64,000 bases of DNA from a virus (IMGVR_UViG_3300026549_000069:12424-76423); one strand, 5' to 3'. Shown: positions 3,001 through 44,424, counted from the first letter of the stretch. Made by a program: numbers and translations. The notes: generated from the letters alone by a model not told the origin.

Positions 3001-4019
3001 CATTTGGCGATTCGACTGGAACTATACACACAATCGAAAATCCGCTATACAACAACGACATCCTGCGTTGTGTTGTCGCTAAAAGCGAGGGGGATGCATT
3101 TAATATTTCCCATTGGCAACCAGTACAAGAATTCACTACAAGTCGGATAGTTCAAAACTCCAACCAAATCAAACTTGAAGTACAGCAAGGGATGGAAACT
3201 ACTGGTATTAACATCACAACAGGGAAGATTGAACTGAATGCAGCAAACACAGTCGTTTCAAATACATTGTCTGTAGCTAGATTGGAAACACACCCAGACA
3301 CAAGCGTTGATGCTACGAATAAAGCAAAAGTTCAAATCAGTGGCAGTACAATGAACGTGTTTGGCGCGACTGGAATCATGAACATACAATTTGGTGTTGA
3401 TGATGACGGATATGCTGTATTGAAATACTACGACAATGATGGATTCCTTTTGTATGACCTTGGGCCGCACGGGATTAGAACTTTAGATATTAGTTCTGAA
3501 GGCTTTGATTACGATGATTTGTATGTGGTGACACAAGAAGGGGCAAACGACACAAGTGACACATTGGCCACACTAGGCAGGTATCATCCTAAAAAGATAG
3601 CGACAGTTGTTTCGGCCGGCACGATTGCGGATAATAATGATGCAATTGCAGCAGAGGCTAGTGGCAAATGGTTTACGACAACAACGTATGGTGCTGAAAT
3701 TTCAACAATAGTCGCTAATGGTGCTCTTGATACATCAATATTAGCAAACGGAACATATAGGTGGACAAACGAAATATTTTCAATGTCAAACCTTGAATTA
3801 TATGGTAATAGTGTCAGCGATGCAAAAGCGGATTTAATTCTTCAAACAGGAATATCACAAGCACAAGCAGATGCTTTTGATTGGGAGCTTAATACTTCGC
3901 AGTCAAATTTTGTACTAAAACGTACTATATATTGGCGAGAATATACTAACTTTGTCGATGGTGTCGAACAACCACAACATATTACAGTATGGCAAACTGA
4001 AGAATATAATGAGAATTAA
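6..4019 (+). CDS. Phage tail-tip/baseplate hub-type structural protein (5' truncated)
   Basis: Frame open to window edge; KIITRIAGYGSERNIP and ADYFNVRKKLQANEVEI segments typical of Bacteroidales phage tail proteins; heads the tail-lysis operon. Confidence 0.75.
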   Translation: MREGMVSDNGDLKGMTKYSFEFYHPMHMLSNFPFTDVAVSNDELLYKSQDKVFSWVGYLQDYINKLNKNLQETQWICDLSPLTQESTLKKFSDVLTFDNNTIADALKTAFDTWGVPFVIDVISVTDERYAQGKRFLIHFGEPSNEIYESEDAKEASTPFVFKFGQGVGLKNNSATPKNNKIITRIAGYGSERNIPFGYPQIVWDENGDESELQYPLYDGIVGGRWVKLIKHPFTRNHLMPTIYAETVARKVNPMDAHYDPNTTIIDYHDALDQSIYQHTINPNSPSYESHEFEDIFPELGVKNIVAVQPINDDMTDAQDWDDSVDDQGNYKQGYFKLTLPVLDFDLYACAAITEEMQINMRTGACIGCTFTIQVDWEDYKKNFYDADNNFSPDGSQRDLTKYPKSQNGQIIVICQKDTNTFGTLMPNIFQKPKGTIAGEYEGDEFVVLGISLPESHIINAQYRLDAAMDEYMLENNVYYFDYPLKFDEHFLATHTYVLNQIKNNTIVRFEFKGEIIPLYVKQITIKYGESPLPQYTITLTDDVDIVLNQIGQVTDDVSKMRVQISSLQSYWYRSGAGGSGTDNTKLSKVVDDTASGVITFLQGLLAGNWVEDSSGAAIHQNNDGNWVIEADYFNVRKKLQANEVEIMHSSHIGGRLIATAGSMVVTKVQYIDNYQTIVYSNIWNGSCYKCWFNTTDSDGNVIYNTFKVGDLAYCETFNLTTSSDGLTNHSTGNHFYWRKVVETGSDYIILSNVFGEYAAESDYPYVGDHITLLGSQAYIGSAGTQPIGEGEQGVPAGVDSYEIDTSRQNAIIMAGAGAGNPYIRVYKGIDTFVLPNPVVQISPSGSWITVTDNNGNDVKITDLIDSLQDQVDQVKEQDDKQIVLWFGNETPTLNNAPAVNWETEQIRHEHANDIYYNRDAGLAYSFIETITENIASYSWDLLTDQDVLRSLELAAKAQDTADGKRRVFVARPTQAQAYDIGDLWVNATFPTEISDGESTFGDSTGTIHTIENPLYNNDILRCVVAKSEGDAFNISHWQPVQEFTTSRIVQNSNQIKLEVQQGMETTGINITTGKIELNAANTVVSNTLSVARLETHPDTSVDATNKAKVQISGSTMNVFGATGIMNIQFGVDDDGYAVLKYYDNDGFLLYDLGPHGIRTLDISSEGFDYDDLYVVTQEGANDTSDTLATLGRYHPKKIATVVSAGTIADNNDAIAAEASGKWFTTTTYGAEISTIVANGALDTSILANGTYRWTNEIFSMSNLELYGNSVSDAKADLILQTGISQAQADAFDWELNTSQSNFVLKRTIYWREYTNFVDGVEQPQHITVWQTEEYNEN

Positions 4020-4612: not shown

Positions 4613-7600
4613 ATGACAAACATTAATGATTTATTAAACAAGATTGAAAACGAGGGCAAAACACCGTCAGGGCGTGTTTCCGCAGAAGAGTTCAATCGTC
4701 TTGTCACTGCTGTGGGAGAAAACCAAGGGGCTGTACATAAGGTGACGATTGACAATGTGGAGTTCACGCCAGATGATGACGGCAATGTAACCCTTGTTAT
4801 CGACCAAGGTGACATCACATACAGCCTTGTGCTAGAGTTTCAAAGCGCACCACAAGTACTACAAAGAAGTACAGATGTTAGTGTGAATGTCCGCGTCAAG
4901 TCTAGCTACAAACGTGAGGGCATAACAACACCATTATCAGAAGTCGCAAGGGTTGTCATCAAAACTAGAACAAGCATTGATGGCGCATGGGTGAATGCTA
5001 CGACTGTGGCAATAGGCACAAATTCAGAAAGCTACACTACAATCCCTTTGAAAAATTACTTGAATATTGGCACAAATTATGTGCAATTCCAAGCAATCAG
5101 CGACAATACTAGGGATGTTGTGAATGAGTTTGAATTAAACGTTGTCAACCTTTCGCTTTCACCGAACAATGCATTTGAAAGGCCATTCACGGACACATTG
5201 ACATTGAACTACTTGATTAGTGGTTCTTATCCAAAGCAAATGCAATTCCAATTTGGTAGTGGAAATGGCAGCTACTTTACCCCTGTGTTTTCGTATTTGA
5301 CCGACAATAGGCTTATTGTTAATCTTGACAGTAGTTCCTATATGGAAAGCGGCCGTGATTTCCAATTTACGGATGCTGATATTCTAGAAACAATGTTGGC
5401 GGAGGGCGTACACACGGTTAAAGCGAGGTTGTATATTAGCGAAGATGTCAATACCGATTGGGTGGAAACTCAATATGTTGTCGCAGGTCAAATTCCTTAT
5501 GTGTCACTGAATAACATTTCGCCTAATTTGACAAACTGGACTGATGTCCATTTCTTTAATTGGGCTACGACGCAAAACATTGCCGTTGTGTTCAGATTAA
5601 CAAATGAGGAGGATACATTGACCTATGCGACGTGGAACTTTGATGCTGCCGCAGAAACTAGCTATGATTTCTCAACCCAACTTGGCATTGAATTACAGGA
5701 TGCAAGTGTTACGCAATTTTACGGCATCATGCATATTGAGGATATTAACGGCAATGCGCTAGCTGATAATGTCGTGTTTAATATTGCGAACAGTGCAGCT
5801 TTTGTCCCGACAAGTGGTGCTGACTTTATTATTACGCCAGCGAATAGAAACAATAGCGAAACAAATCCAGCTAGGGTTATAAATAATGCTACTGGAAGTG
5901 TTGTCAGTGCAACGTTCACAAACTTCGGTTTCTTGACAGACGGGTGGATGCCTGTCAACAAAGATGTGAATGCAATTTCGTCGAATGCAGAAACAATCCG
6001 AGCATTACATATTCCCAGTGGGCGAAAGTTGGATATTGATTACAATCCATTTGTTGATTTCACAAGCGGCAACAACACTGGCTTGAATATGACTCTTGAA
6101 TTTGATTACAGGACAAGCAATATCCTTGATGAAAACGACCCCATTATTCGCATTGGCACAACGGCTAATGACGGCAATGTTTGGGGATTTGAAATGCTGC
6201 CAACAAAGGCATATATGTTGACAGAAAATGAACGCAATGTCGCTGACCAAGATGTTGATTGGGCAGAAGATACCAGAATGCACTTGGCTGTCAATGTTAT
6301 ATATGGTTTGCGTAATGCTGCGTATGATGAACGAATCAATCTTATCCGAATATTCTTAAACGGTGTGATTGAGCGGGAATTTACATATAATTCGGATGAC
6401 AGATTTACAGCTGCGAGTGGTGTGCATATCGTGTTTGGCAACAATACCAGCGACCTTGATATTTTTGGTGTTCGTTCTTATCGTAAGGCTTTGTCTGTTG
6501 ATGATGTTATGCGTGACTATCGTTCATCATTAAGCACGTCAAATGAAAAGATTGCTTTCTTGGAGGCAAATGACATTACAGAGGGCGGTGCGATTGATTT
6601 TGTGAAATGCCAAGGCAAATACAACATAATCGGTTTTACTGGGCCGACATTGCCACAATATATCAACGGGAACAACGAAACTGTCCATGGTGACTTGTAT
6701 ATCAATATCGTTGGCGACCCTGACCATAGCGGCACTTTGACAAATCTTGATGTAAAAGGTCAAGGTACAACAGCTATGACCTATTTCTTTTGGAATCAGC
6801 AATACAAGATTACAGACACAACACAACACCTAGACTTGCAAGGGAACACTAGGTCTGGAATGCTTGGCAAGGGATATGCGATTAAAGATGGTGAGGCACT
6901 TGCAAAGAAACTTGTAGGCAAGATTAACTTTGCATCGTCAATGCAGTCACACAAACTTGGCTTGACTTGGATTTACACAGACTTGTTCAAGCAAGTGATT
7001 TCAAATGACAATCTTCCCAGTCAAATCAAACGACAATCAAATGCACGCCTTGCGGTCTATGAAAAGCCGTTCTTGTTCTTTTGGCGCACAAGTGAAAATA
7101 GCCCGTGGGTATTCAAGAACTTAATGACATTCGGCGCTGGCAAAGGTGACAAGCCAACATTTGGTTTTAGTTCAAGTGCAACACCTGATATGATGATGGT
7201 CGAGGGTGCAGACAACGACAGACCTTTGGCTTTATTCGCCATGCCATGGAATGATGATGTCGTGTACAATACATCGTCAGAGGCTTGGATGTACAACAAT
7301 CAAAAACAATTAAACTTTGGCTTTGGCTCAACGACAAAGGTTAATGGCGAGGAGGTGCCGTCAAGTGAAAATGCAATCAATGCAATGAAAGCATTTTTTA
7401 ACTTTGTCTATACGCATCATTCTGGAATTAACTATTTCAATGGCACATTTTCTGAATTAAAGCGCAGCACAAGCGTTTCCCGCAGCAAGCTGTATTGGGT
7501 AACACAGGCCGAAAATGGTTCAAATATCTATGACTTGTATAGGTATGATGCTCTTGCAGCTACTTGGGTGAATGCAGGTGTTGACGGTGACACATTGAAT

Positions 7601-29119: not shown

Positions 29120-30097
29120 TCATTTCTTCTCCCATTTTTGACGTTCTTTCGACCAGACAACAGTACCACGGCCATTGTTCATCTTGATTTCAGCCCCGTC
29201 AGGACGATTGTTGTTGTCATAGCCATCGAAGATATAATTCTCGTCAACACCAGTAAAAATATAGCACCCGTAATGCTCATTCCAATGAATGTTGCCAGTG
29301 GTGTCAGGACGATATTGCGTTTCACCAAACAAGCAGCCATAAACCTTGGACGGGTCATAGACAATCTTGCCACCGTCAAATATCACGTCATCGAAAAGGC
29401 GGTCACGAAGATAACGCTCAAAATCCCGCTGGTAGCACAATTCCCGTGTCGAAACATAAGCATGAATATGGCCTAGCACCCGAGAACGGTCATCAACAGA
29501 CAGACGTTCCCACTGCTCACGCGACTTTTTCTTGCTGCCCTTGCGATTGTAGGCAACCCAGCATTTTTCAAACATTTCGTCTTTTTCTTTTTTTTCTTTT
29601 TTGGATAGTTTTTTTCTTTTATTTTCTTTTTCTACAACATCATCTTGTTGTTGTATACTATCAGCATCTATGTGTAGTATACTAGTATCAGTATCTAGTA
29701 TTGTAATATTATTATAGTATTGCCGATTTTCAACCCGTGTAGGAGTTTTTCCGATTCGGGTTTTTTCCGAGTCAGGTTTTTCCCCACACGGCTCAGATTC
29801 ACAACAACGAAAAGCCTTGAGCACATATTTCACATTGCCAAAACAACCCTTGCCATCCTTGGACTGACCAACACGAACCAACCAACCAGATGACATCAAC
29901 TCTCCTACATACTTGCGAAAGGTGTCCGCACTGTAACCCAATTCAGAACACATCGTTTTCTGGTCGAAATTCCAGCCCGGTTCCTTGCAAGCCATGTAAA
30001 CATACATGAACCTAGCACGGTCACTCAACGCAACATCAAATACCAAATCTTTCGGTATCGACTGCAAACCACATAATTCACTTGAAAAATTACCCAT
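29120..30097 (-). CDS. Replication initiator / replisome organiser (wHTH)
   Basis: LSDRARFMYVY...ELMSSGWL wHTH; FEKCWVAYNRKGSK C-terminal domain; likely start ATG 30097. Confidence 0.7.
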   Translation of the reverse strand: MGNFSSELCGLQSIPKDLVFDVALSDRARFMYVYMACKEPGWNFDQKTMCSELGYSADTFRKYVGELMSSGWLVRVGQSKDGKGCFGNVKYVLKAFRCCESEPCGEKPDSEKTRIGKTPTRVENRQYYNNITILDTDTSILHIDADSIQQQDDVVEKENKRKKLSKKEKKEKDEMFEKCWVAYNRKGSKKKSREQWERLSVDDRSRVLGHIHAYVSTRELCYQRDFERYLRDRLFDDVIFDGGKIVYDPSKVYGCLFGETQYRPDTTGNIHWNEHYGCYIFTGVDENYIFDGYDNNNRPDGAEIKMNNGRGTVVWSKERQKWEKK

Positions 30098-30310
30098 AAT
30101 ACAAACTTTTTTATCATACCCACAACCAAACATACATACAAAAAACAACCACTGGCAATCAAACAATATTGTCTTCCACTACAATCCGTCTAATCACCAG
30201 CGGCCGAAAAAAGTTTGTATATATGCTGAGGAGCGAAGTAATCCGAGATTTATTATACAAAATTGCCAATTGAATGTGGAAGATTTAGCAACATTTCAAA
30301 AATCACAGTG

Positions 30311-30342
30311 CAAAGGTAGTAGCTTTTCTTGAAATACACAAA
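30311..30342 (-). promoter_or_regulatory. Bacteroidota promoter (leftward)
   Basis: TTTG-N20-TACCTTTG. Confidence 0.8.
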
Positions 30343-30377
30343 TTTTTTCCCAAAAAAATGACAAAATTGATTTTAAA

Positions 30378-30455
30378 GCGCATTTAAGCACGTCAAACAA
30401 GCAAAATGAACAACTATACTACACAACACACAAAAACGTAACACAGGGCAATTGT
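30378..30455. repeat. Dispersed element, copy C
   Basis: gcatttaagcac...gaacaacta...acacagggcaatt with 55-nt spacing. Confidence 0.5.
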
Positions 30456-30594
30456 GGACGTTTTAGGGGCATTATAGAATTATAAGTACAATATAACTTG
30501 ATTTTTTCAAAAATTTTTTTCGTTTTTTCGAAAAAAGGGTTTGCACCACACGAAATCCACGTCCCTATCTCCCCCTCCCCCTCGGCCTAAAAGC

Positions 30595-30712
30595 TAGCTG
30601 AAACGCCCCTAAACACGCAAAACGCAAATATATTTGTATCAAACGAACAATTAACTTGAATATCAAACAATTGCACACAAAATCACCTTAAACGCTAGCT
30701 TTTTGGGCGAAA
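30595..30712. repeat. Dyad element, possible inverted member of the same family
   Basis: aaaagctagc/gctagctttt 10-bp inverted repeat; reverse strand reads gcgtttaaggtgatttt. Confidence 0.4.
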
Positions 30713-30719
30713 ATACATA

Positions 30720-31060
30720 CAATCTAATTTAATATACAATAATTTCATTTTTCTGCAAATATATCTACTTTTCATAAATTTTTGCTATTTTGCCCTAATA
30801 TTAATATAATTATTACATAACTTTAATAACTTTACAGTATAAACTGTATAATACTACACTAACAGATAATACTAGCTAATAAACAGTAGTATACTAACAG
30901 TTTATATATCAACTAAATAACAGTTAATTAGTTAATTATTATAGATATGCTTAAATAGTATGATTATAATATTACTATTAATAAATATCCATTTGGCTAG
31001 TATTTCCTTTTGGACTAGTCTAATTTGCTTTAATAATGTACCCACACGAAAGGGCTGGAT
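30720..31060. other. Very AT-rich non-coding tract (origin or terminus candidate)
   Basis: Visibly AT-dominated, no ORF, between divergent promoters. Confidence 0.45.
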
Positions 31061-31168
31061 TTAGTTAACAAACCTTTAAAAATAGGCTTATTTGTGAAAA
31101 TATCTTTCGCCTATATATATGTACACACGAAATAATGCAGTTAACAGGCGTTAAAAAAATAGGAAAAA

Positions 31169-31200
31169 TTTGGTCAATCCAGAAGGTGGGTGTACTTTTG
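31169..31200 (+). promoter_or_regulatory. Bacteroidota promoter (rightward, early)
   Basis: TTTG-N20-TACTTTTG. Confidence 0.8.
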
Positions 31201-31926
31201 CAGTGTCGAAAGGGACAAAGGAACAACCCGCCACCGTAACGCGGCGCCCCACGTCCGAACAACCAAACAAGTTAGACTAACGTTGTATGTTAGTTGAAGA
31301 GCACCTTGAAATGATGACAAACGGCATTGTACCGGATAGGTCGGAGCCAACCGTGAAAAGCTATTTAGCTCGTTGGTCCAGGAATTGACAATTCCCCACC
31401 TTCGTTAACACTTCTGGCAAAGGTGTAAGCGGTTGAGTTTTTAGACTAAAAGCGGTAACAAAGAGCCGAAGCGGGAAGGTATGCACAATGTACCGAGCTT
31501 AAAAACGTGTGAATGAATTGAATTAGCTAGTAAATTGTTCCACGTAAAACAATTGCGACGCAAAAAGCAAAATAAATGATTTTTGAGCAAATTTGCAAAG
31601 CTATCTTTATAGCATTTAATTGCAGTGAGTCAATTGCAAGTGCAGCACACAATTAGCTATCATTATAGCACTTTTGATTGTGTGCAGCGCTAAAGCAAAA
31701 ATCATTGACTTTTGCCGGTTGCGGCAGCCTGAAAAAATAAGGGCTGCAGCGCCGCAATTGTTATTAGCCAGATTAAGCAACAAAAAACACTGGCGGACGA
31801 CAGATGAGGAGAATAACAGAGTCGTTTTTTAGGAGCCTTCTCGGGCTCCCCGCCAACAAATTTAATTCACTAACCTACTTAAAGCGCTTTTCGGTTGCAG
31901 GCCTCGGCCGTGGAACCGTGTATATT
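31201..31926 (+). ncRNA. Candidate large structured RNA / leader
   Basis: No credible ORF; nested helices, e.g. 31367-72/31494-99, 31398-403/31475-80, 31575-85/31696-706, 31645-53/31677-85, three-way junction 31791-31855. Confidence 0.55.
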
Positions 31927-32487
31927 ATGGCTACAACAAACAATGCTACCGCAATCCGCATCGACAACATGAGTCTGTTTCTCCTCGGCGAGAAAAAGGT
32001 CAACTTTAAGAACGTCCTTAAAGCAACGAAGGACGGCATGACTCTTAACCGTGTTATTAGAATGATGGCGAGCAAGGATTGTTATCCCACACTCGCCGAG
32101 GACTTGAAGCTGTGTGGCATCAACTCTGCCGCCGAGCTCACGCTAAAAAATGTTAAGTCGTTGGTTGCGCCCGAGCTAAAGAAGGTGGAGACGGTAAAGA
32201 ACGAGAACGGCACCGAGCGTGAGGTGGAAGTGCTTTGCACCGTCCGTCGCGTTTTTGAAACAGAGGAGGTACAATTGTACCGTGACGGCATGCCCTTGTG
32301 CAAAGCTGGCAAACCACTCACGCAAAAGCGTGCAAAGGAGGACGAGGACGGCGAGAAGGTTGTCAAGGAGTACAAGCTGTGCAAGGTGTCTGCATGGAGC
32401 ATCGGCCTCCTCATGAACTTGCTTGCACAGTCGAAGGCTGCAAACGAGGAGCGTGCTCGCATTGCAGCTATGCAGGCTGCAAAGTAA
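31927..32487 (+). CDS. First early gene, 186 aa, unknown function
   Basis: ATG 31927 after tatatt; strongly C/G-ending codons; K/E-rich. Confidence 0.8.
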   Translation: MATTNNATAIRIDNMSLFLLGEKKVNFKNVLKATKDGMTLNRVIRMMASKDCYPTLAEDLKLCGINSAAELTLKNVKSLVAPELKKVETVKNENGTEREVEVLCTVRRVFETEEVQLYRDGMPLCKAGKPLTQKRAKEDEDGEKVVKEYKLCKVSAWSIGLLMNLLAQSKAANEERARIAAMQAAK

Positions 32488-32502
32488 TATACGGCAACAG
32501 AC

Positions 32503-32600
32503 AACCCGTCCGAGCGGGGCCGTTGGGTAGGGAGCGGCAAAGGTAGTTAGGCTCGGAGCGTTTGCCCGTCACAGTGGGGAGGTGGCGGGCGAGGTCTACA
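32503..32600 (+). ncRNA. Pistol-class self-cleaving ribozyme with an inserted hairpin
   Basis: P1 cccg/cggg; loop tccgag pairs with ctcgga; AAA linker; P2 gtag/ctac; ttagg loop; GCG; 12-bp P3; G|U site 32594/32595. Confidence 0.85.
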
Positions 32601-32616
32601 CAAAAAAGTTTGTAAT

Positions 32617-32766
32617 ATGGTAAATGTTTTTCACACAAGCGGGCTGTATTTATTCAGTGCCGCAAGCATTGCCGATGCACACAAAAAGTGCATCGAGCGG
32701 GGATTAAAAACATTTACGCAGTCAATGCGTAACGGCATACTAACTTTATATGTTACAGAGGTATGA
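32617..32766 (+). CDS. Small protein (49 aa), not in ORF track
   Basis: Open frame with ATGA overlap into next gene. Confidence 0.5.
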   Translation: MVNVFHTSGLYLFSAASIADAHKKCIERGLKTFTQSMRNGILTLYVTEV

Positions 32767-32975
32767 GCGACAAAATTACATTGGCATGCGTGATTAGTTT
32801 CATGCTATCGATTTGCGCTATGTGTGGTGCGTTTATCTGCATCGATATGGGAATTGTGGACGGAAATAACGTTTGGGCTCAGGTTGCATATACGAGCCCA
32901 GCAATTGTCTTCGCCCTATCATTGTGGGCAATCGAAATTGCCGAGACCATAGAGAGAAAACGCAACAATAACTAA
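32763..32975 (+). CDS. Small two-TM membrane protein
   Basis: 70 aa, two hydrophobic helices. Confidence 0.6.
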   Translation: MSDKITLACVISFMLSICAMCGAFICIDMGIVDGNNVWAQVAYTSPAIVFALSLWAIEIAETIERKRNNN

Positions 32976-33056
32976 ACAATAATAACTCCTGCCGCAAAAG
33001 GTGGGCGCAATCCTTTGCTACTTTGGCGAGCGAAAGAGCGAAAGTAGCGGTTTATT

Positions 33057-34370
33057 ATGGCAAAGATTAAGAATTTGCAGACAGGTGAGGAGATGACCGT
33101 TAATAACAGTGTGATTCGTAACGGCCAATTGTGGGTGTTCAACAAAACGCCAAAACTTGGCGAACGTTGGTTCGCAAAGCGTCCGATGTTGTCGCAAGAC
33201 GGCACGGTCGAAGGCACCGCGCCAAACCTTGCGCTCCGTATGACCATTGCGGAGCCGTGGGTGCTTGACACAAGCAAGCCCGAGAGAAAACAGCGTACGC
33301 CCAAGGTACGCCAACCCGAGCCCGAGCAGCCGAAGGAAACAGAAGTGCCAGAGCAACCGATACCGCAGCCAGAGCCCGAACAGCCGCAACCGACACCACA
33401 ACCCGTGCAACCTGCTCCGGCATTCAACGTCACAGGTCTTGAAGGCGGGTTGGCGCAGGTGTTCGCACCTGTGTTTCAACAGGTAGCGGCACAGATAGAG
33501 GAAAACATCCGCGCAAAAGTGGCCACAGAAATTGCCGACTTGAAGCGTGTCGCCGAGGAAAAAGCGCGGACGCTCCGCATTGAGCTGCCAGATGGAACAA
33601 AGACCAAGGTCGAAGGTCTGACAATGGACGGTTTTGATGATATGGTGCGAGATTTAGCTGCTGGCTATGCCGTGTATATGTACGGCCCCGCAGGAACAGG
33701 CAAGTCACACACAGCAAAGCAACTTGCGGCCGCACTTGGTTTGCCATACTACGAACTTAATCAGGTTGAGTTCGCACACGAGGTTGCCGGCTATGGCGAT
33801 GCAAGCGGCAAGTATGTGCCGACACCACTTTACGAGGCGGTCACAAAGGGCGGCTTGCTGTTCTTTGACGAGTTTGACCGCAGCGCACAAAGTGCGACAA
33901 CTATTGTCAACACATTGTTGGCAAATCGGCGTTTTACATTCCCTGTCGTTGGCAATGTTGAGGCACACCCGAATTTCCGTGTGGTTGCCGCAGGTAATAC
34001 GACTATGACTGGCGCAAGTAACGAGTATGTTGCCGCCAACGTGATTGACGCATCAAGTCGTGACCGATTTGTGTTTTACAAAACGTATTACGACGAGCGC
34101 ATTGAGCTGCCTGTTATGGCTGGCGGTGATAAAGAACTTGTGGATTTCATGCAAGACTTGCGACAATCAATTGAGAAATCGCACATCTCGCTTGTTGCAA
34201 GTATGCGTGCAACCAAGTACTTGCACACGCACGACAACAACAAGCGCACCGCACTTGAGCGCGGTTTGTTCAAGGGCATGGATGCCGAGGACATTCGTGT
34301 GCTGTACAACAATCTTTCGAGCAAAGGTCTGATAACGAGCTGGGCCGATGCAATGCAAGAATTGTGCTAA
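33057..34370 (+). CDS. MoxR/CbbQ-like AAA+ ATPase
   Basis: GPAGTGKS Walker A, LLFFDEFD Walker B, AAGN, SRDRF; P/E/Q linker after N-terminal domain. Confidence 0.88.
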   Translation: MAKIKNLQTGEEMTVNNSVIRNGQLWVFNKTPKLGERWFAKRPMLSQDGTVEGTAPNLALRMTIAEPWVLDTSKPERKQRTPKVRQPEPEQPKETEVPEQPIPQPEPEQPQPTPQPVQPAPAFNVTGLEGGLAQVFAPVFQQVAAQIEENIRAKVATEIADLKRVAEEKARTLRIELPDGTKTKVEGLTMDGFDDMVRDLAAGYAVYMYGPAGTGKSHTAKQLAAALGLPYYELNQVEFAHEVAGYGDASGKYVPTPLYEAVTKGGLLFFDEFDRSAQSATTIVNTLLANRRFTFPVVGNVEAHPNFRVVAAGNTTMTGASNEYVAANVIDASSRDRFVFYKTYYDERIELPVMAGGDKELVDFMQDLRQSIEKSHISLVASMRATKYLHTHDNNKRTALERGLFKGMDAEDIRVLYNNLSSKGLITSWADAMQELC

Positions 34371-34389
34371 TCTTTTAACACTAACGACT

Positions 34390-35196
34390 ATGAACGTATT
34401 GTTTCAAAAATTCGCCAACATGAGCGAATACCACAACTATCTTGAGAGCGGGAAAGTTCAGCCCGCTTTCAAGAGTGGGCAAGCGTCAAAGACTGGATTT
34501 AAAAGCTTTACAGGTACGGAGTCCTATGAAGAGGCTGACAAGCTATATTTGTGGGGCGATGAAGAAATCGCAAAGAAACTTGACGGGTCTTATTCAATCA
34601 AGACTATGATTCGCAAATATGCTGCGATGAAACCGACAACAAAGAAATTTGTCAGCGTGTGTGGTGCTGTTCCCCATGTGCCTAACTATATCGCTGGCAT
34701 TCCGACAAACATGATTGCAATCCGCCGAACAAAAGTCAGAGAGCGTGTTATGGATGTGTTCTTTAACATGTGCATATCATGCGATGTTAGCACAGAGGAA
34801 ATAATTGAAACGACAATAGAGTTATTTAAGGCGATTATGACAATCGAATCTAGCGGAACACGGGTCAATCTGTATGCTGGCGAGGCTGTGATAAACAAAA
34901 GTCACACGCAGGTTGCTGGAATGGCGATAAAGATTAAGAATGCAACACAACCGATAGACATTGTAAAGATGGTCTATCCGCTGGTCAACCCGTCAATGTT
35001 GCGCCGCCACCATTTTCGCTGGCTTGAAGTGACAAAGGGAATCGAAAAAGATTTCCATAACGGATATGGCCGTGTCCGTGATGACCTTACGATGCCATAC
35101 GTTCGAAAGGAAATGCGCAATTGTCATTGCGTATGCTTTAATGAAATCCGTAAGATGACGTGCGATAGCATTGTCCGCACAATTCTTGACAACTAA
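34390..35196 (+). CDS. vWA-like partner of the AAA ATPase
   Basis: GAVPHVPNYIAG, DVFFNMCIS, IESSGTRVNLY, IKIK..QP; position directly after ATPase. Confidence 0.6.
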   Translation: MNVLFQKFANMSEYHNYLESGKVQPAFKSGQASKTGFKSFTGTESYEEADKLYLWGDEEIAKKLDGSYSIKTMIRKYAAMKPTTKKFVSVCGAVPHVPNYIAGIPTNMIAIRRTKVRERVMDVFFNMCISCDVSTEEIIETTIELFKAIMTIESSGTRVNLYAGEAVINKSHTQVAGMAIKIKNATQPIDIVKMVYPLVNPSMLRRHHFRWLEVTKGIEKDFHNGYGRVRDDLTMPYVRKEMRNCHCVCFNEIRKMTCDSIVRTILDN

Positions 35197-44352: not shown

Positions 44353-44424
44353 TGGCGATTGGTGTAATGGTTTGCACGTCAGTTTTTGGCACTGAAAGGG
44401 CAAGTTCAATTCTTGCATCGCCAA
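44353..44424 (+). tRNA. tRNA-Gln (UUG)
   Basis: Acceptor tggcgat/atcgcca, D arm gtg/cac, anticodon stem tcagt/actga with loop ttTTGgc, T arm gcaag-ttcaatt-cttgc; no encoded CCA. Confidence 0.9.

What the first reader, a model, noticed from the sequence alone, without database searches (positions are those of the whole stretch)
31201..32600. Promoter - structured RNA - 186-aa ORF - ribozyme as a self-releasing unit
Self-cleavage at 32594/32595 would release a ~1.39-kb RNA carrying the structured leader and the first gene, with a 2',3'-cyclic phosphate end. The remaining early mRNA would have a 5'-OH. The ORF is K/E-rich with strongly biased codons. Hypothesis: a ribonucleoprotein system (the protein binds its own structured RNA) or a device that decouples the stability of the first gene from downstream genes.
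Basis: inference. Interest (0 to 1): 0.72.

Follow-up and report, generated by a model that had tools for sequence, protein, structure and literature searches.

The report
Phage early gene ending in pistol ribozyme
The first gene of this phage's early operon has a long folded RNA leader and is followed by a self-cutting "pistol" RNA of an unusual shape, which probably separates the first message from the genes behind it, a known kind of arrangement with some new parts.

Summary
All four parts are at the stated coordinates.

- **Promoter.** A Bacteroidetes-type promoter (TTTG-N20-TAnnTTTG, 31169-31200) is conserved in relatives.
- **Leader.** It is about 720 nt. The 5' part is mosaic. The 3' part is conserved and ends in a three-way-junction RNA (31792-31854) with no Rfam match. 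I found this RNA upstream of every homologue of the gene that had enough upstream sequence, with 135 of 135 stem positions paired.
- **Gene.** The 186-aa ORF is a real, basic, high-GC3 ORFan of a small family with no known fold.
- **Ribozyme.** The element at 32505-32599 is a pistol-class ribozyme by comparative evidence, with the scissile G32594|U32595. It misses Rfam's threshold because of an extra hairpin, but its orthologue in a relative passes, and the stems and pseudoknot covary strongly.

A pistol follows the gene in 7 of 9 informative lineages. It comes directly after the gene, or after one more small ORF or a non-coding gap. It is internally deleted in one lineage and absent in one.

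Cleavage is untested. It would cut the early transcript 22 nt before the next start codon. The ribonucleoprotein idea is untested. Ribozymes between phage genes are already known, and this scan has noted pistols in many phages, so this is a new variant of a known kind.

The parts
31169..31200 (+). Bacteroidetes-type promoter: -33 TTTG (31169-72), 20-nt spacer, -7 TACTTTTG (31193-31200)
   Evidence: the motif is enriched in the window (12 against 2.3 expected), conserved in relatives with variable nn, and always 727-1088 nt before the ORF.
31205..31368 (+). 5' variable module of the leader. It includes a small hairpin CCGC/GCGG with loop CACCGUAAC (31228-31244).
   Evidence: replaced by unrelated sequence or indels in L002 and L003, kept in L004/L005. 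The hairpin has one compensatory change in L003.
31369..31791 (+). Conserved middle of the leader. Hairpins at 31381-95, 31408-26, 31478-94 (loop CACAAU) and 31533-54. Long-range stem 31548-61 with 31749-62. Twin words GCTATCWTTATAGC at 31600-13 and 31656-69.
   Evidence: 90% of cells paired, 18 of 79 pairs with double changes, 0 of 500 shuffles as good; the twin words keep their distance to the ATG in six lineages.
31792..31854 (+). Three-way-junction ('Y') RNA: P1 GGCGG/CCGCC; P2 ACGAC/GUCGU with conserved 19-nt loop AGAUGAGGAGAAUAACAGA; P3 GGAGCC/GGCUCC with loop UUCUCG
   Evidence: 9 lineages, 135 of 135 cells paired, 14 of 15 pairs with double changes, 0 of 1000 shuffles as good. No Rfam match. 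Only one copy in the window.
31855..31926 (+). A/U-rich spacer (..AAUUCACUAAC..) and pre-ORF hairpin CGGUU-G-CAGGC-CUCG-GCCgUG-G-AACCG (31892-31918), ending 8 nt before the AUG
   Evidence: conserved, with G-C to A-U compensation in L002, L004 and L006. The same motif is repeated behind the pistol in L003, L004 and L005.
31927..32487 (+). ORF186: basic (pI 9.15), high-GC3 ORFan protein, first gene of the early operon
   Evidence: AlphaFold2 pLDDT is 83 with the 16-sequence alignment. No Pfam or PHROG hit. No fold match.
32505..32599 (+). Pistol-class self-cleaving ribozyme, hairpin-insert variant: P1 32505-08/32515-18; loop 32509-14 pairs with 32552-57 (pseudoknot); extra hairpin 32519-38; AAAG 32539-42; P2 32543-46/32596-99; UUAGG 32547-51; GCG 32558-60; P3 32561-72/32582-93
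32594..32595 (+). Predicted scissile G|U linkage
   Evidence: By homology to the G53-U54 site of pistol (PMC6154101, PMC4604425). Not tested.
32617..32766 (+). Next gene (49 aa, C-terminus ..YVTEV). Its AUG lies 22 nt after the predicted cut.
   Evidence: conserved in L002 and L004/L005, and a similar small ORF occurs in L072.

Best explanation
This is the head of the early operon of an uncultured phage whose host is probably in the Bacteroidota.

A host-type promoter (TTTG/TAnnTTTG) starts a transcript near 31205. The first ~720 nt are a non-coding, multi-helix leader. Its gene-proximal end is a conserved three-way-junction RNA, followed by an A/U-rich spacer and a small hairpin. Next comes the first cistron, a basic 186-aa ORFan with unusually high GC3, which would fit heavy expression but could also reflect acquisition from elsewhere.

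Seventeen nucleotides after its stop codon lies the only pistol-class ribozyme in the 76-kb genome. It is a variant with an extra hairpin between P1 and the A-rich linker. By homology it should cut itself between G32594 and U32595.

The upstream product would be about 1.39 kb (leader plus ORF186). It would end in the compact ribozyme fold with a 2',3'-cyclic phosphate. The downstream mRNA (small ORFs, AAA+ ATPase, DUF7192 and more) would begin with a 5'-OH only 22 nt before its first AUG. The likely effect is that the two halves of one transcript get independent stability and translation.

Shown here: the sequence features, their conservation, covariation and co-occurrence. Inferred: transcription through the whole unit, cleavage in vivo and its consequence.
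For: - Promoter.
- Pistol identity: the orthologue in L003 passes the Rfam Pistol gathering score (36.8 against 34.5 bits). My own model finds one copy at the same kind of place in window, L002, L003, L004/L005, L015, L072, L073 and L074. Covariation covers P1, the pseudoknot, P3 and the extra hairpin. The invariant UUAGG, GCG and G|U match the residues the literature names as catalytic: purine 32, G33, G40, G42 and G53-U54 (PMC6154101).
- The 5-nt loop separates it from the pseudoknot hammerhead, which has a 7-nt CUGAUGA loop (PMC11300833).
- There is one ribozyme in the whole genome (Rfam scan).
- The leader, Y element and ORF are linked in every lineage with upstream sequence.
- Same strand, and no nearer canonical promoter in the window.
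- Literature precedent for ribozymes processing phage polycistronic RNA: PMC3088659, PMC6765202.
Against:
- The window copy fails Rfam's threshold (12.4 bits).
- It has a shortened linker (AAAG rather than AUAAAUA) interrupted by a hairpin. The effect of this on the A-minor contacts with P1 is unknown.
- P2 never varies, so it has no covariation support.
- The position of the pistol relative to ORF186 is not fixed. It is absent from L017 and decayed in L016.
- The twin TAnnTTT(G/A)-containing words inside the leader could be internal promoters.
Confidence: 0.68

Rival explanations
1. Ribonucleoprotein or autoregulation: the ORF186 protein binds the three-way-junction RNA (or another leader module) of its own transcript. 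It would either repress its own translation or form a stable particle that the ribozyme releases from the operon RNA. This can be true together with the best explanation.
For: - The Y element and an ORF186-family gene co-occur in all 11 loci with upstream sequence, down to 32-34% protein identity. The loops are sequence-conserved and the stems covary.
- The protein is basic, pI 9.15.
- There is only one Y element in the window.
Against: - The protein has no RNA-binding domain or fold match.
- Co-occurrence of a 5' UTR element with its gene is expected for any cis-regulatory RNA.
- No binding test is possible with these tools.
Confidence: 0.22
2. Loose mosaic: promoter, leader modules, ORF186 and pistol are independent, exchangeable cassettes typical of phage early regions. 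The pistol is a generic intercistronic insulator or 3' stabiliser, or a passenger, with no particular tie to ORF186.
For: - The 5' third of the leader is replaced among relatives that are 75-87% identical in DNA.
- Homology breaks exactly at 32600, where L003-L005 carry an extra ~340-nt module.
- The pistol lies after the next small ORF in L072 and L073, is absent in L017, and is deleted in L016.
- This scan lists 177 notes of pistols in phages.
Against: - A pistol stays within about 0-350 nt downstream of an ORF186-family gene in 7 of 9 informative lineages, spanning 25-96% protein identity.
- There is a single copy per genome, at this one boundary.
Confidence: 0.3
3. The leader is one or more separate non-coding RNA genes, and ORF186 is transcribed from an internal promoter. 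The twin CTAYCTTTRTAG words contain the -7 box TAnnTTT(G/A). On this view the 1.39-kb single RNA does not exist.
For: - In L017 (one copy) and L072 (both copies) the words are perfect TAnnTTTG.
- One L072 copy has a TTTG 20 nt upstream.
- The words sit at a fixed 263-340 nt before the ATG.
Against: - In the window both words end in TTTA and lack a -33 TTTG at 19-21 nt.
- The terminator scan found no +-strand terminator-like site between 31200 and 31926.
- The words also form conserved hairpins inside a long-range stem.
Confidence: 0.18
4. The 3' element is pistol-derived but catalytically dead in this lineage. It would act only as a stable 3' structure, a transcription terminator or pause site, or a nuclease entry site.
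For: - It has an inserted hairpin and a shortened linker.
- It is below the Rfam threshold.
- L016 shows that the element can decay.
Against: - UUAGG, GCG, the G|U junction and the 2-nt junction length are kept in all eight distinct active-looking copies, while the stems covary. That pattern indicates selection on the catalytic fold.
- There is no U-tract after P3.
Confidence: 0.12

Closest known systems
Pistol self-cleaving ribozyme (Rfam RF02679; Weinberg 2015; Harris 2015, PMC4604425; structures 5K7C/5KTJ/6R47, reviewed in PMC6154101)
   Same: Same order and connectivity: a P1 hairpin whose 6-nt loop forms a 6-bp pseudoknot with the P2-P3 junction, an A-rich linker, a 4-bp P2, the loop UUAGG with purine 32/G33, G40-C41-G42, P3, and a G|U junction of fixed length. 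It lies in phage DNA. A validated pistol exists in the Bacteroidetes species Alistipes putredinis.
   Different: A 11-36-nt hairpin is inserted between the P1 3' strand and the linker in six of seven lineages. The linker is shortened to AAAG, or to GAG in two lineages. P3 is 12 bp long. The window copy is below Rfam's gathering score. Activity is untested.
Ribozyme-flanked genes in prophages and phages (clustered hammerheads, Perreault 2011, PMC3088659; review PMC6765202)
   Same: A self-cleaving ribozyme sits in an intercistronic gap of a phage operon. This suggests that a long transcript is processed into pieces with separate fates.
   Different: There is one ribozyme in the whole genome rather than an array. 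It marks a single boundary behind the first gene or genes of the early operon, and it is linked to one particular gene family.
Pseudoknot-containing hammerhead ribozyme (PMC11300833)
   Same: Identical helix topology and a 6-bp pseudoknot.
   Different: The hammerhead has a 7-nt CUGAUGA loop between helix I and the pseudoknot. This element has the 5-nt pistol loop UUAGG and the pistol GCG.
Synthetic ribozyme insulators such as RiboJ (from my own knowledge; no paper checked)
   Same: A self-cleaving ribozyme placed just upstream of a coding region removes the upstream RNA context and leaves a 5'-OH.
   Different: RiboJ is engineered and hammerhead-derived. This one is natural and of pistol class.

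Membership tests
Pistol ribozyme | P1 hairpin | tested here: met
   32505-08/32515-18. Three of 4 pairs have compensatory changes, and 100% of cells are paired.
Pistol ribozyme | Six-base-pair pseudoknot between the P1 loop and the P2-P3 junction | tested here: met
   UCCGAG (32509-14) pairs with CUCGGA (32552-57). Four of 6 pairs have changes on both sides across lineages, for example UCCUAG/CUAGGA, UUGCGG/CCGCAA and ACAGGG/CCCUG.
Pistol ribozyme | A-rich linker between P1 and P2 | tested here: inconclusive
   AAAG is present at 32539-42, but it is shorter than the consensus AUAAAUA and separated from P1 by a 20-nt hairpin. L003 has UGAAAUAG. L072 and L074 have GAG.
Pistol ribozyme | P2 helix closing the ribozyme | tested here: inconclusive
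   GUAG/CUAC can pair in all copies, but it never varies, so there is no covariation evidence.
Pistol ribozyme | 5-nt loop with a purine at position 32 and G33, followed after the pseudoknot by G40-C41-G42 | tested here: met
   UUAGG (32547-51) and GCG (32558-60) are invariant in all full copies. The residues are as named in PMC6154101.
Pistol ribozyme | P3 helix | tested here: met
   12 bp, 32561-72/32582-93. Eight of 12 pairs have double changes.
Pistol ribozyme | Two-nucleotide G-U junction between P3 and P2 as the cleavage site | tested here: met
   G32594-U32595 is invariant, and the junction length is exactly 2 nt in all copies.
Pistol ribozyme | Score at or above the Rfam gathering threshold | tested here: not met
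   The window copy scores 12.4 bits against 34.5. The orthologue in L003, which lacks the extra hairpin, scores 36.8 bits.
Pistol ribozyme | Mg2+-dependent self-cleavage giving a 2',3'-cyclic phosphate and a 5'-OH | not testable with these tools
   Needs in vitro transcription or end-specific RNA-seq.
Pseudoknot hammerhead ribozyme | CUGAUGA core loop and GAAA | tested here: not met
   Neither motif occurs in 32505-32599. The loop there is UUAGG.
tRNA-like element (considered for the 31792-31854 three-way junction) | Cloverleaf with a T-loop consensus, recognised by tRNA finders | tested here: not met
   ARAGORN finds only tRNA-Gln at 44353. Rfam gives no tRNA or tmRNA hit here. The P3 loop is UUCUCG or UUGUCG, not a T-loop.

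The most novel reading that the evidence does not exclude
The ~1.4-kb RNA is a dedicated product that is both a message and a functional RNA. The conserved leader, with its three-way junction and twin hairpin words, would assemble with the abundant basic ORF186 protein into an early-infection ribonucleoprotein, for example a decoy or sponge against a host factor or defence. The single pistol ribozyme would exist to excise this particle from the operon transcript. That would give pistol a defined biological job and would define a new phage RNA-protein system.
Probability: 0.1. Interest if true: 0.8.

Novelty: new variant of a known kind. Interest (0 to 1): 0.5.

Why it matters
Pistol ribozymes have been known since 2015, but their natural role is still open. 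This case is unusually clean. There is one ribozyme per genome, at one defined boundary behind the first early gene, and it is tied to a small gene family.

Nature also supplies the controls: a relative without the extra hairpin (L003), one with an internally deleted ribozyme (L016) and one without any (L017). Together these make the question "what does cleavage do for the flanking genes?" directly testable.

The work also shows a recurrent pistol subtype with an inserted hairpin that the Rfam model misses at its threshold. It adds a strongly covarying three-way-junction RNA with no Rfam match that always precedes this gene family.

Tried and rejected
**Searches that gave nothing**
- An Rfam scan of the whole window at gathering scores, and of 30800-33100 at E up to 10, gave no ribozyme. 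The pistol was recognised only after scanning the short stretch and the orthologue.
- BLAST of 30200-32700 against GenBank phages found no match.
- Protein-based locus searches in IMG/VR, JGI metagenomes and GTDB genomes found no relatives. The deep alignment was too diverse for the locus finder.
- Exact-pattern scans of IMG/VR for three pistol pieces and for the Y-element loop returned only chance matches or nothing.

**Structure and fold**
- Single-sequence folding is uninformative. For 31180-31520, z = +0.23. For the 3' element, z = -2.1.
- The ORF186 fold gave pLDDT 49 with the shallow alignment and 83 with the deep one.
- That model has no convincing match in PDB by Foldseek, in BFVD, or in the wide VIA-align search, where the best Z is 3.9.
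- The ESM Atlas feature search gave no usable hit, and the atlas fold library was unavailable.
- P0012 and P0016 (repeat hits) look like low-complexity artefacts.

**Ideas considered and dropped**
- tRNA-like reading of the Y element and of the L004 insert: ARAGORN is negative.
- Terminal-inverted-repeat or long-range pairing between leader 31227-52 and pistol P3: absent in L002 and L003, and duplex energy is no better than shuffles.
- The in-frame upstream ATG at 31804 (a 227-aa form): the frame is not conserved in L002-L004.
- Pairing of the Y-element loop GAGGAGAA with UUCUCCUC inside the ORF (~31980): read by eye, it is not conserved.

**Tools and papers not available**
- Weinberg 2015 (PMC4509812) is not held. 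I therefore could not check whether a hairpin insert in the linker was drawn in the original consensus.

Full report
**Setting**

The window is part of a 76-kb, about 96% complete viral record. Around the finding the layout is as follows:
- A replication-initiator gene at 29120-30166 on the minus strand (PHROG 270).
- A 1.76-kb gap without convincing ORFs.
- A 186-aa ORF at 31927-32487 on the plus strand.
- A GC-rich 95-nt element.
- Two small ORFs, an AAA_5 ATPase (33057-34370) and a DUF7192 protein.

GC skew changes sign near 31000. This is therefore a divergent control region, with the early rightward operon starting here.

**Promoter**

TTTG-N20-TACTTTTG at 31169-31200 fits the two-box promoter of Bacteroidetes (TTTG at -33, TAnnTTTG at -7; this consensus is from my own knowledge).
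- The pattern occurs 12 times in the window against 2.3 expected, and no shuffle reaches 12.
- A partner on the other strand at 30311-30342 faces the initiator gene.
- In relatives the boxes are kept while the two free positions vary: TAct, TAat, TAcc.
- A canonical copy lies 727-1088 nt upstream of the homologous ORF in six lineages.
- No other canonical copy lies between 31200 and the ORF in the window.

**The gene**

ORF186 has no Pfam or PHROG match.
- A word-indexed search of 5.8 billion proteins found only five clusters at 85-96% identity.
- An exhaustive profile search of 1.8 billion representatives found 14 proteins.
- After removing two repetitive artefacts, these form a family at 25-51% identity.
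- Protein conservation (88% mean column identity) exceeds DNA identity (75-87%), so the gene is under purifying selection.
- It is basic (pI 9.15), with 11.8% K and 9.6% E. Its GC3 is 0.65, against 0.36-0.40 for most other genes in the window; the neighbouring AAA ATPase is at 0.56.
- With the deep alignment AlphaFold2 gives pLDDT 83: an N-terminal helical part, a beta domain and a long C-terminal helix.
- Foldseek on PDB and BFVD and a wide VIA-align search give nothing convincing; the best Z is 3.9.

Its function is unknown.

**The ribozyme**

Rfam at gathering scores, and at E up to 10 over 2.3 kb, reported no ribozyme.

The sequence has these elements in order:
- P1 CCCG/CGGG.
- A 6-nt loop UCCGAG that is exactly complementary to CUCGGA at 32552-57.
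- A 20-nt extra hairpin.
- The linker AAAG.
- P2 GUAG, later closed by CUAC.
- The loop UUAGG.
- GCG.
- A 12-bp P3.
- The G32594|U32595 junction.

Four lines of evidence support the reading:
- The orthologous element in L003 lacks the extra hairpin and has the linker UGAAAUAG. It passes the Rfam Pistol gathering score at 36.8 against 34.5 bits. The window copy reaches only 12.4 bits over the 3' two-thirds of the model.
- A covariance model built from seven copies finds exactly one copy in the window, and one in the whole genome. It also finds one each in L002, L003, L004/L005, L015, L072, L073 and L074.
- On the model-fitted alignment, 96.4% of cells pair, against 28-49% when the partners are slid. 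Seventeen of 31 pairs change on both sides, including 4 of 6 pseudoknot pairs, and no shuffle matches this. That alignment leans towards the structure, but the pseudoknot was not part of the model.
- UUAGG, GCG, G|U and the 2-nt junction are invariant. They correspond to the purine-32/G33, G40-C41-G42 and G53-U54 positions named in the literature (PMC6154101, PMC4604425).

The 5-nt loop separates it from the topologically identical pseudoknot hammerhead, whose loop is CUGAUGA (PMC11300833).

The extra hairpin recurs with different sequences and compensating pairs in six lineages: GCCGUU/AGCGGC, GCCAA/UUGGC, GCUCU/AGGGC, UGGUC/GGCCA and GGUGGA/UCCACC. It is a stable feature of a subtype, not an accident. 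I could not read the original consensus paper to see whether such an insert was already noted.

**The leader**

A single-sequence fold of 31180-31520 is unremarkable. The comparative picture is mixed.

*Variable 5' part.* About 31205-31368 is replaced or carries large indels in L002 and L003, and L004/L005 carry a 176-nt insertion just after it.

*Conserved middle.* From about 31370 onward the sequence is conserved.
- RNAalifold on five lineages gives 79 pairs, 18 of them with double changes, against 8.2 ± 2.1 in shuffles and 3-7 in slid controls. The structure was derived from the same sequences, so this is moderate evidence.
- A long-range stem (31548-61 with 31749-62) encloses two copies of GCTATCWTTATAGC.
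- Those words keep their distance to the ATG (263-340 nt) in six lineages.
- They contain TAnnTTT(G/A), so internal promoters cannot be excluded.

*Three-way junction.* This is the strongest element, at 31792-31854.
- In nine lineages, down to about 32-34% protein identity, all 135 stem cells pair and 14 of 15 pairs show double changes.
- The 16-20-nt P2 loop (..UGAGGAnnAUAACAGA) and the P3 loop (UUGUCG or UUCUCG) stay similar. That was a manual register, so it is biased towards the structure, but the margin is large.
- It has no Rfam match and a single copy in the window.
- L074, at 25% protein identity, has only a divergent, expanded version further upstream (by eye).

*Spacer and hairpin.* An A/U-rich spacer and a small bulged hairpin follow, ending 8 nt before the AUG. 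The same hairpin motif reappears behind the pistol in L003-L005, in front of an extra module.

Every locus with enough upstream sequence has a promoter or promoter-like -7 box, a long leader (about 730-1090 nt), a Y element and an ORF186-family gene. These loci are the window, L002, L003, L004/L005, L015, L017, L072, L073 and L074.

| Pistol state | Loci |
|---|---|
| Directly after the stop codon | window, L002, L003, L004/L005, L015 |
| After one further small ORF | L072, L073 |
| About 190 nt after the stop | L074 |
| Relic missing 31 nt (GCG and all of P3), flanked by an AGG microhomology | L016 |
| Absent | L017 |
| Contig too short to judge | L006, L018, L075 |

A pistol therefore follows the gene in 7 of 9 informative lineages, but the released piece is not always "leader plus one ORF". 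Homology between the window and L003-L005 breaks exactly at 32600, right after the ribozyme. The ribozyme's 3' edge is thus also a recombination boundary.

**Mechanism**

If the transcript runs from about 31205 through the operon, self-cleavage would give two products:
- A ~1.39-kb 5' piece ending in the folded ribozyme with a 2',3'-cyclic phosphate.
- A 3' piece starting with 5'-OH U32595, 22 nt before the AUG at 32617.

The distance from the cut to the next start codon is 20 nt in L015 and 29 nt in L073. It is longer in L003, L072 and L074 (coordinates).

The most economical reading is intercistronic processing. It would uncouple a probably heavily expressed first gene, with its elaborate leader, from the replication genes. 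It would also leave the next start site free of upstream structure. This idea is already in the literature for hammerheads in prophages and for bacterial ribozymes in general (PMC3088659, PMC6765202). This scan has noted pistols between phage genes many times on other DNA.

The ribonucleoprotein idea rests only on the strict linkage of the Y element with the gene and on the basic charge of the protein.

**Verdict**

New here are a recurrent hairpin-insert pistol subtype that Rfam's threshold misses and a well-supported three-way-junction RNA specific to a small ORFan family. There is also a tidy single-ribozyme arrangement with natural loss variants. The general principle is known, and no RNA evidence could be obtained.

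Noticed in passing
window 31600-31613 and 31656-31669: Twin near-palindromic words GCTATCWTTATAGC sit at a conserved distance (263-340 nt) before the ORF186 start in six lineages. They contain the Bacteroidetes -7 box TAnnTTT(G/A), and are perfect TAnnTTTG in L072 (both copies) and L017 (one copy). They could be internal promoters, sigma-dependent pause sites, protein-binding sites or RNA hairpins.
   Followed up: partly
L004:2232-2365 (same in L005): A ~190-nt insertion in the leader carries a perfect 7-bp acceptor-like stem (TCCGCTA...TAGCGGA, then ACA). It also has a T-arm-like GCTGG-TTCGACT-CCAGC, preceded by a duplicate of the pre-ORF hairpin motif. ARAGORN and Rfam call nothing there.
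   Followed up: partly
L072:~3290-3335, L073:~2145-2190, L074:~2015-2060, L017:~3700-3740: A hairpin with the conserved loop AAUUCACU(A/G)UCACC sits directly before the pistol in three distant relatives, and also in the pistol-less L017. The window lacks it. It has no Rfam hit.
   Followed up: no
L016:793-840: This is a natural pistol relic. Compared with L015 it lacks 31 nt (GCG and the whole of P3), bounded by an AGG microhomology, while P1, the extra hairpin, P2 and the G|U junction remain. An assembly error cannot be excluded.
   Followed up: partly
window 31227-31252 versus 32574-32589: Leader CCCGCCACC..CCCCAC is complementary to the 3' strand and loop of pistol P3. L004 keeps this with a matching one-base indel on both sides. 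L002 and L003 lack it, and duplex energy is no better than shuffles. It is probably chance, but it could compete with P3 formation.
   Followed up: partly
window 31900-34400: ORF186 (GC3 0.65) and the AAA ATPase (GC3 0.56) are much richer in G+C than most other genes in the window (GC3 0.36-0.40). This suggests either strong codon adaptation or recent acquisition of this block.
   Followed up: partly
window 30311-30342 (-) and 30343-31168: A second canonical TTTG/TAnnTTTG promoter faces the replication-initiator gene. Between the two divergent promoters lies an AT-rich (about 31% GC) stretch with several direct and inverted repeats, a candidate origin or control region.
   Followed up: no
window 31892-31918; L003:~4690-4730; L004:~3110-3150: The small bulged hairpin just before the ORF186 start (CGGUU-G-CAGGC-loop-GCCgUG-G-AACCG) recurs behind the pistol in L003-L005, in front of an extra ~340-nt module. 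It looks like a portable pre-gene cassette.
   Followed up: partly
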